NCBI RefSeq assembly: GCF_035594765.1
Contig: NW_026943820.1
Location: 30,078,647 to 30,142,646, forward strand
Length of the DNA stretch: 64,000 nucleotides
Source of the DNA: Anolis carolinensis
Taxonomy: Eukaryota
Reading direction: 5' to 3'
Position 1 is the stretch's first letter, and each line of letters begins with the position of its first letter. The notes under the pieces were generated by a model, which saw only the letters and a program-made list of their open reading frames with translations, searched no databases and was not told the origin of the DNA. The position numbers were made by a program, and so were the translations under genes. Shown piece after piece: positions 34,302 through 34,505 of the stretch.

Positions 34302-34505
34302 GTTGTTGTGTGTTTTCCGGGCTCCGGAAGCATTCTCTCCTGACGTTTCGCCCACATCTACGGCAGGCATCCTCAGCCTCAGGCCCCTTCCTTTTCCCCC
34401 TCAGCCGCTTAAGCGGCTGAGGGGGAAAAGGAAAGGGCCTGAGGCTGAGGATGCCTGCCGTAGATGTGGGAGAAACGTCAGGAGAGAATGCTGCTTTTGG
34501 AACAT
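34302..34505. mobile_element. Palindromic Penelope-derived element with hammerhead cores on both strands (copy 2)
   Basis: 34329-34492 is a spacer-less 164-bp palindrome centred on CTT|AAG (34410/34411) with 2 mismatches. Confidence 0.85.

What the first reader, a model, noticed from the sequence alone, without database searches (positions are those of the whole stretch)
34302..34505. Candidate undescribed mobile family: 164-bp spacer-less palindrome with a hammerhead core on each strand
Seen: 82-bp arms with 2 mismatches and no loop, centred on CTTAAG. Each strand reads CUGAGGA-UGCCUGC-CGUAGAU-GUGGG(C/A)-GAAAC-GUC-AGG. The central ~68 bp (CCTCAGGCCCCTTCCTTTTCCCCCTCAGCCGCTT and its complement) is not found next to the ordinary Penelope ends in this window and is joined exactly at the CUGAGGA box. 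A second copy 11 kb away shares the diagnostic features, so the chimera was copied as a unit. Inference: a short non-autonomous fold-back element, MITE-like or retrozyme-like, that gives nearly the same hairpin RNA from either strand and may be mobilised by Penelope machinery. Caveat: the 5' strand of stem I (CCU) is replaced by AGG and the long hairpin would sequester the core, so classical cis self-cleavage is doubtful. It may act instead as dsRNA or cruciform DNA. Both copies lie downstream of minus-strand genes.
Basis: partly seen in the sequence, partly recalled or inferred. Interest (0 to 1): 0.7.

Follow-up and report, generated by a model that had tools for sequence, protein, structure and literature searches.

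The report
Hairpin hitchhiking on Penelope insertions
This mirror-image DNA joins two ends of a common lizard jumping gene (a Penelope-like element) around a hairpin taken from a different, cut-and-paste jumping gene; about fifty such hybrids sit near chromosome ends in local family groups, likely because new insertions copy the hairpin from a nearby copy while they are being repaired, and the ribozyme motif in it is predicted to be dead.

Summary
The palindrome is real (34329-34492, 82-bp arms, 2 mismatches). Its arms are the hammerhead/'tail' end of a Poseidon-type Penelope-like element (PLE); its ~74-bp centre is the hairpin of a palindromic hAT-type MITE. I found 52 such chimeras in the genome, 49 within 5 Mb of a contig end. 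Their ends fall at the two published PLE reverse-transcription start sites, and 11 have 10-15 bp target duplications, so PLE machinery inserted them. They are not one element: about ten junctions exist, variants cluster by chromosome end (56 of 111 same-end pairs alike, 15.7 expected), and young copies carry arms of an active PLE subfamily around a local centre. Best reading: PLE DNA ends are likely extended on a nearby hairpin copy, which bridges the two arms; the hairpin hitchhikes locally. A self-mobilising RNA unit is less likely: the chimeras lack ORF bases 119-172 that PAc needs in vitro. 'Hammerhead on each strand' is ordinary (about 440 PLE-only spacer-less palindromes); stem I is lost in 56 of 61 chimeric arms. 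New variant of a known kind; moderate interest.

The parts
34329..34492 (.). Core spacer-less palindrome, 82-bp arms, apex CTTAAG at 34408-34413
34373..34448 (.). Hairpin centre derived from a palindromic hAT-type MITE; keeps the MITE's left/right difference at +-24
   Evidence: 98.7% over 75 bp to L061; MITE context with 8-bp TSD in L066, L067
34445..34555 (+). Right PLE arm: CTGAGGA box 34445-34451, ORF ATG 34451, cleavage triplet GTC 34477-34479, ends at ORF +115 with the 'tail'; carries CTCACCGC variant shared only with a copy 92 kb away
   Evidence: positions match PMC11167929 (cut site 26 nt after the start codon, RT start +111-118)
34301..34376 (-). Left PLE arm, inverted, ends at ORF +83 (no tail); carries a 14-nt deletion at 34322/34323 found only in three copies at this chromosome end
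34155..34298 (.). Jumbled PLE pseudo-LTR pieces (antisense 34155-34235, sense 34239-34298), 72-88% to PLE copies, directly left of the element; no target duplication around this copy
23010..23212 (.). Second chimeric copy; left arm joined to the apex (CTTAAG 23104-23109) by a 24-bp deletion; right arm has the same 14-nt deletion

Best explanation
The element is a head-to-head stub of a Poseidon-type Penelope-like retroelement whose two arms are bridged by a hairpin from a hAT-type MITE, and new copies are likely made when the free DNA end of a Penelope arm is extended on a nearby hairpin-bearing copy. Steps. (1) Shown in print for PAc: the enzyme cuts both strands and starts reverse transcription at two internal sites. 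Shown here: the two ends of the chimeras fall at ORF +115-119 and +80-90, with 10-15 bp target duplications in 11 copies. (2) Inferred: the two short cDNAs must be joined head to head; normally they meet near the RNA 5' end and give PLE-only palindromes. (3) Inferred: near chromosome ends a cDNA 3' end (or a resected break in an old PLE end) instead anneals to a nearby donor, first a MITE arm through the CTGAGG / CTG..AGGAATG look-alike (several independent origins), later an existing chimera through 40-100 bp of PLE homology. (4) Inferred: synthesis runs across the apex into the donor's other arm, which is complementary to the second cDNA, so the gap closes cleanly; if it stops at the apex, a short or missing left arm results. 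(5) Each product is a better donor than the MITE, so lineages grow locally. The hammerhead is a passenger and is predicted to be inactive.
For: Ends and TSDs: longer arm at +115-119 in 29 of 52, shorter arm at +80-94 in 25 of 39; TSD in 9 of 39 two-armed loci against 1% for mismatched flank pairs, 2 more by eye (L046, L107). Same anatomy in PLE-only stubs L091-L096. Read-through of the donor: the MITE's +-24 asymmetry is kept in 21 of 30 scorable loci while the junction is usually the same on both arms. Many origins: about ten junction strings. Locality: 56 of 111 same-end pairs share junction+centre type, shuffled mean 15.7, maximum 37 of 10,000; the 14-nt deletion has 2 exact hits in 1.85 Gb, both at this end, 3 with a looser pattern; flanks are not shared except one 800-bp inverted duplicate. 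Mosaics: L046 and L047 have arms 1 and 0 mismatches in 107 from a young PLE stub (L092) around a centre otherwise found at that C4 end only in chimeras; four outer-arm signatures sit on that one centre. Local DNA capture by this PLE shown once directly: the centre of L096 is a 216-bp, 96.8% copy of DNA 260-470 bp away, next best 86%. Apex as stop point: 12 of 13 single-armed loci begin within about 7 nt of it. Ordinary PLE stubs are not local or terminal: 3 of 61 listed loci in the first 5 Mb of 224 Mb of C1.
Against: Only 11 of 52 copies show a TSD, and neither window copy does, so for this copy PLE insertion is inferred from its ends only. No exact donor was identified for any chimera (L047's best local relative differs at +-24). 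Shared deletions in the outer arm (+49 to +62) mean whole arms are copied, which a mobile RNA unit also predicts. The source of the second captured centre tested (L098) was not found within +-30 kb. The parent hairpin is itself about ten times denser in the first 2 Mb of C1 (43 hits; genome mean 2.1 per Mb; one end only), so part of the terminal bias is simply donor density. Apex-bounded one-arm deletions also occur in plain MITE copies (L135, L139, L144, L149), so DNA breakage alone can give that pattern. DNA versus nascent-RNA donor is not resolved.
Confidence: 0.6

Rival explanations
1. Conversion and break repair without the PLE enzyme: in high-recombination chromosome ends the hairpin apex breaks, and old PLE ends or stubs are repaired from nearby chimeras, so the centre spreads by ectopic gene conversion; TSDs are inherited from earlier PLE-only insertions.
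For: 41 of 52 copies, including both in the window, have no TSD; this copy's two arms resemble two different neighbours; centre variants also cluster locally among plain MITEs with diverse outer arms (C5, C6 ends); tandem arrays start at the apex (L130-L132). Green anole lacks PRDM9 (10.1101/2021.06.08.447603, passages) and this copy lies in CpG-rich DNA (o/e about 0.8); that such places are hotspots here is inference.
Against: Five chimeras in 92 kb at C11R far exceed the density of PLE-only stubs (about 0.27 per Mb on C1) available for conversion; L046 and L047 are near-identical to a young stub, leaving little time for later conversion; a break at the apex should remove, not spread, the hairpin.
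Confidence: 0.22
2. A non-autonomous retro-element: transcripts of chimeric copies are bound in trans by the PLE protein and reinserted near their source.
For: PLE-type ends and TSDs; whole-arm variants shared among neighbours; pLTR sequences alone can mobilise foreign DNA in rotifer PLEs (PMC3846280, passages).
Against: PAc needed the first 172 nt of the ORF in the RNA in vitro (PMC11167929, main text) and the chimeras stop at +118 or earlier; the 3' arm would be paired with its antisense copy; about ten junctions and mixed outer arms argue against one unit; ordinary RNA-templated stubs are spread evenly, not locally.
Confidence: 0.12
3. A selected functional RNA or DNA structure (ribozyme, dsRNA/small-RNA source, or cruciform near the ARL2BP-like promoter).
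For: Very stable hairpin; tail junction shared by three organism labels; promoter-proximal position.
Against: Stem I absent in 56 of 61 parsable arms; stem II probability 0 in the full palindrome; flanks differ by only about 1% between those organisms, so sharing does not show constraint; many copies have lost an arm.
Confidence: 0.04
4. A MITE moved by a hAT transposase.
For: The centre comes from a hAT-type MITE.
Against: No MITE terminal repeats in 51 of 52 copies (only L033 keeps a remnant); TSDs are 10-15 bp, not 8 bp; ends are PLE ends.
Confidence: 0.01

Closest known systems
Poseidon_Ac / PAc Penelope-like element of Anolis carolinensis (PMC11167929)
   Same: Hammerhead core at the ORF start with the cut site 26 nt after the ATG, AC-rich end at +111-118, 33-nt tail on one side only, AT-rich targets
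   Different: No ORF beyond +118, no promoter region, stem I replaced, foreign hairpin in the middle. The published sequence file could not be read as text, so identity rests on these positions and on a decayed GIY-YIG-like frame read by eye in L100 (no Pfam hit)
Head-to-head inverted pLTR insertions of PLEs with captured DNA (PMC3846280, PMC8557442)
   Same: Inverted 5'-truncated arms, palindrome at the junction, optional tail, short TSD, capture of unrelated DNA between pLTRs
   Different: Here one captured sequence recurs about 50 times, forms chromosome-end-specific lineages and is itself a hairpin from a class II element
Non-autonomous hAT MITEs of Anolis (PMC3014272)
   Same: Donor of the centre: fully palindromic, about 190 bp, CAGGCATG ends, 8-bp TSD
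   Different: Its exact terminal repeat was not among the Table 1 rows I saw (nearest hAT-N5_AC, hAT-HT1_AC); the chimera has none of its ends
Templated insertions at retrotransposon 5' junctions and polymerase-theta end joining (recalled, no call)
   Same: A free 3' end copies nearby DNA through microhomology, then reanneals
   Different: The product is a better donor for the next event, giving local amplification
Retrozymes (recalled; review PMC11722881 seen in a search listing only)
   Same: Short, non-coding, hammerhead motif, PLE-related in animals
   Different: Retrozymes are direct tandem repeats with active ribozymes that release circular RNA; this is inverted and the ribozyme lacks stem I

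Membership tests
PLE inverted-arm insertion | Two inverted pLTR/ORF-start arms, tail on one side | tested here: met
   +115-119 and +80-94 ends; this copy +115/+83
PLE inverted-arm insertion | Short target-site duplication | tested here: inconclusive
   9 of 39 two-armed loci (null 1%) plus 2 by eye; absent in both window copies
Autonomous PLE | RT + GIY-YIG ORF | tested here: not met
   no copy extends past ORF +119
Non-autonomous PLE family | One ancestral unit with fixed structure | tested here: not met
   about ten junctions, four outer-arm signatures on one centre
Non-autonomous PLE family | Own transcript used by the PLE protein | not testable with these tools
   only contigs of guessed RNA runs; none listed bridges the junction; in vitro requirement for +172 is from PMC11167929
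hAT MITE | Terminal inverted repeats CAGGCATG... and 8-bp TSD | tested here: not met
   present in the donor MITE, absent in the chimeras
Type I hammerhead ribozyme | CUGANGA, stem II, GAAA, NUH | tested here: met
   read from the sequence; no Rfam hammerhead hit, but none for a native PLE copy either
Type I hammerhead ribozyme | Stem I closing the core | tested here: not met
   0 pairs in 56 of 61 parsable arms including this one; 3 pairs in native copies L091, L092, L098
Type I hammerhead ribozyme | Self-cleavage | not testable with these tools
   needs an assay; native PAc HHR cleaves only with protein (PMC11167929)
Retrozyme | Direct tandem hammerhead-bounded monomers giving circular RNA | tested here: not met
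   arms are inverted in all 39 two-armed loci

The most novel reading that the evidence does not exclude
A hairpin with no ends, promoter or enzyme of its own spreads as a template parasite: it is copied into new Penelope insertions from the nearest existing copy because its symmetry closes the gap between the two cDNAs, producing separate lineages at each chromosome end. The set is then a natural record of how Penelope elements finish their insertion and of which DNA is within reach at chromosome ends.
Probability: 0.4. Interest if true: 0.75.

Novelty: new variant of a known kind. Interest (0 to 1): 0.5.

Why it matters
How PLEs complete the second strand and form inverted arms is stated as open in PMC11167929 and PMC8557442. 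These chimeras carry marks (asymmetric centre, symmetric junction, young outer arms, end-specific variants) that separate twin priming plus templated repair from fold-back or RNA-unit models, and the existing in vitro PAc system makes this testable. They also show a class I/class II hybrid that spreads over tens to hundreds of kilobases, not genome-wide. No host function is indicated.

Tried and rejected
Local duplication only: rejected, 52 loci on 11 chromosomes-scale contigs plus one small contig, flanks unshared. Segmental duplication of subtelomeres: rejected on flanks, one 800-bp inverted duplicate excepted. Assembly artefact: unlikely, both outer junctions are in independent runs, though short-read contigs cannot span the palindrome. 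Rfam: only sub-threshold miRNA hairpin matches, which any long hairpin gives; no hammerhead hit even for a native copy, so uninformative. Folding as a test of the ribozyme in single arms: uninformative, native stem I also has probability 0. Expression: no RNA holder listed on record; four guessed-RNA runs are contigs and none listed bridges the junction by 31 nt; no evidence either way. Arm-to-arm conversion as the cause of this copy's symmetry: not needed, flanks differ only about 1% between organisms and arms within loci differ 5.4% against 8.9-9.6% between loci in +1..45. Both arms copied from one arm: rejected for the centre by the +-24 asymmetry (21 of 30). The first count of that asymmetry had a faulty pattern and was redone; a first locus inventory (42 loci) missed known loci and was replaced; the Fisher test used a hand count of 30/32 where the script gives 29/31, so I give counts only. 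Poseidon_Ac sequence not found in the three text supplements. Literature searches listed no description of this chimera; Repbase and Dfam could not be searched, so a catalogued consensus is not excluded.

Full report
Observation. The window holds a spacer-less palindrome at 34329-34492 with 82-bp arms and two mismatches, the only one of its size in 64 kb, folding at -202.5 kcal/mol, z -22.8. A second copy lies at 23010-23212 with 24 bp missing between CCTCAGG and the apex. The window is 105-170 kb from the end of contig C11 of a 1.85-Gb genome, whose last 10 kb hold TTAGGG repeats. The host is an anole lizard by the match of its repeats to the papers below; the species is my inference.

The arms. 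They are the start of the ORF of a Poseidon-type Penelope-like element. PMC11167929 (main text and first methods read; supplements searched, no sequence found) places the ORF start at stem II of the hammerhead, the cut site 26 nt after the start codon, reverse-transcription starts in an AC-rich stretch at +111-118 and at a second site one 'tail' upstream, and finds that the RNA needs the first 172 nt of the ORF and that the ribozyme cleaves only with protein. In the window ATG is at 34451, GTC ends at +29, the right arm ends at +115 and the left arm at +83. An exact 29-mer of this end has 27,575 hits.

The centre. Loci that matched only the middle of the query are fully palindromic MITEs of about 190 bp with CAGGCATG ends and 8-bp target duplications in L066 and L067, hAT-type by the criteria in PMC3014272 (passages and Table 1 rows seen; this exact end was not among them). 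The window's 34373-34448 is 98.7% identical to L061. An arm pattern of the MITE has 3,868 exact hits. MITE CCTGAGGCTGTTAGGAATG and PLE TCTGAGGATG look alike, and the junctions fall there.

What is ordinary. PLE-only spacer-less palindromes with an intact hammerhead on each strand are common: 726 hits, about 440 loci by the ratio in the 100 listed, evenly spread along C1, 3 of 61 in the first 5 Mb. They have one arm with and one without the tail and 10-14 bp duplications (L091-L096). This layout is described for PLEs in PMC3846280 and PMC8557442 (passages).

The chimeric set. An exact junction pattern gave 52 hits at 37 loci, control 0, all within 5 Mb of a contig end. With the DNA search (which scored only 40 of 2,852 candidates) and a second pattern I assembled 52 loci, a lower bound: 39 two-armed, 13 single-armed, 49 within 5 Mb of an end; on the six large contigs 29 of 31. 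Controls: an exact intact MITE arm has 1 of 26 large-contig hits within 5 Mb, but the looser MITE pattern is ten times denser than average in the first 2 Mb of C1, partly as tandem arrays. Seven of the ten extra loci were PLE-only and are not counted. The longer arm ends at +115-119 in 29 of 52 (I oriented each locus by its longer arm, and a few ends are alignment run-on), the shorter at +80-94 in 25 of 39. Target duplications were found in 9 of 39 two-armed and 0 of 13 single-armed loci, against 1% of 300 mismatched flank pairs, and in two more by eye.

Not one unit. About ten junction strings occur; most loci have the same one on both arms, two do not. The MITE's A/G difference at +-24 is kept in 21 of 30 scorable loci, in both orientations to the tail, so synthesis ran through the apex from one donor arm into the other. 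Types cluster by chromosome end: 56 of 111 same-end pairs share junction and centre, shuffled mean 15.7, maximum 37 in 10,000 (three labels were misparsed and left as they were). A 14-nt deletion in this copy's left arm has two exact hits in the genome, both at this end, and a third in the second window copy; the right arm's CTCACCGC variant is shared only with a copy 92 kb away. In the last 264 kb fetched of C11 the hairpin occurs six times, five as chimera. At the C4 right end all nine hits of one centre variant are chimeras, with four different outer-arm signatures; two of them, with target duplications, are 1 and 0 mismatches in 107 from a young PLE-only stub. Flanks are not shared.

Mechanism. 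The enzyme supplies the two ends (published for PAc, matched here). The join is the open step. In one PLE-only stub the centre is a 96.8% copy of 216 bp lying 260-470 bp away; in a second the source was not found within 30 kb. Earlier notes of this scan report the same kind of capture at other loci (leads, not support). I infer that a PLE 3' end anneals to a nearby hairpin donor, is extended across the apex and then pairs with the second arm. Stops at the apex give the short left arms (as in window copy 2 and L046) and single arms (12 of 13 start within about 7 nt of it). Since each chimera offers far more homology than a MITE, lineages grow locally. For the 41 copies without duplications, this one included, repair of a later break from a neighbour is equally possible, and plain MITEs show the same apex deletions and local centre variants; that is the main rival. 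A self-mobilising RNA is disfavoured by the missing +119-172 and by the even spread of ordinary stubs.

Ribozyme. The core motif is present but stem I is absent in 56 of 61 parsable arms of 91; three arms keep the native three pairs. In the full palindrome the core is wholly paired with its antisense copy. Rfam gave no hammerhead hit for chimeric or native copies. Expression is untested.

Verdict. Real, multi-copy, not described in the papers that searches listed (Repbase and Dfam not searchable; bioRxiv supplements closed). It works like a PLE inverted-arm insertion with captured DNA; it is not a hAT MITE, not a retrozyme and probably not a single non-autonomous family. The surprising part is the recurrence and the chromosome-end-specific local spread. 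Novelty: new variant of a known kind. Interest 0.5.

Noticed in passing
G000 genome-wide; L091, L093, L095; L097-L099: PLE-only palindromes meet mostly at GAGGT|ACCTC, 31-32 nt downstream of the pLTR TATATAAA, where a transcription start would be expected; this fits two cDNAs that both run to the RNA 5' end. The start site itself is not shown.
   Followed up: partly
L094:543-567 (C1:3014.6 kb): A PLE-only stub has TTAGGG telomeric repeats in its centre, 3 Mb from the contig end.
   Followed up: no
L096 (C1:641240-641469): Centre of a PLE stub copied from DNA 260-470 bp downstream, 96.8% over 216 bp.
   Followed up: yes
C5:197-251 kb, L130-L132 (C5:2.07 Mb), C1:55-56 kb, C1:1.828 Mb, C9:17.337-17.341 Mb: Tandem arrays built from the MITE half-hairpin (153-, 158-, 266-bp spacing; unit starts at the apex in L130) or from a PLE end (115-bp spacing).
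   Followed up: partly
C5:2.07-4.13 Mb, C6:117.9-118.8 Mb, C15:5.0-6.0 Mb, C17:5.8-6.2 Mb: A rare centre variant of the MITE clusters locally among MITE copies with different outer arms (C15 and C17 copies not read), suggesting local spread of the hairpin inside the MITE family too.
   Followed up: partly
G000 genome-wide: A PLE end variant with an extra GCT (162 exact hits) is concentrated near contig ends and on small contigs among the 100 listed and is in 37 of 91 chimeric arms by a looser pattern.
   Followed up: partly
window 34155-34298: Rearranged PLE promoter pieces beside the element differ from other copies largely by A/T to G/C changes, by eye; possible GC-biased conversion.
   Followed up: no
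window 8875-8960 (+): tRNA-Leu(CAG) gene.
   Followed up: no
window 38976-40421 (-): 481-aa frame with a reverse transcriptase domain (Pfam RVT_1), likely a LINE fragment in an intron.
   Followed up: no
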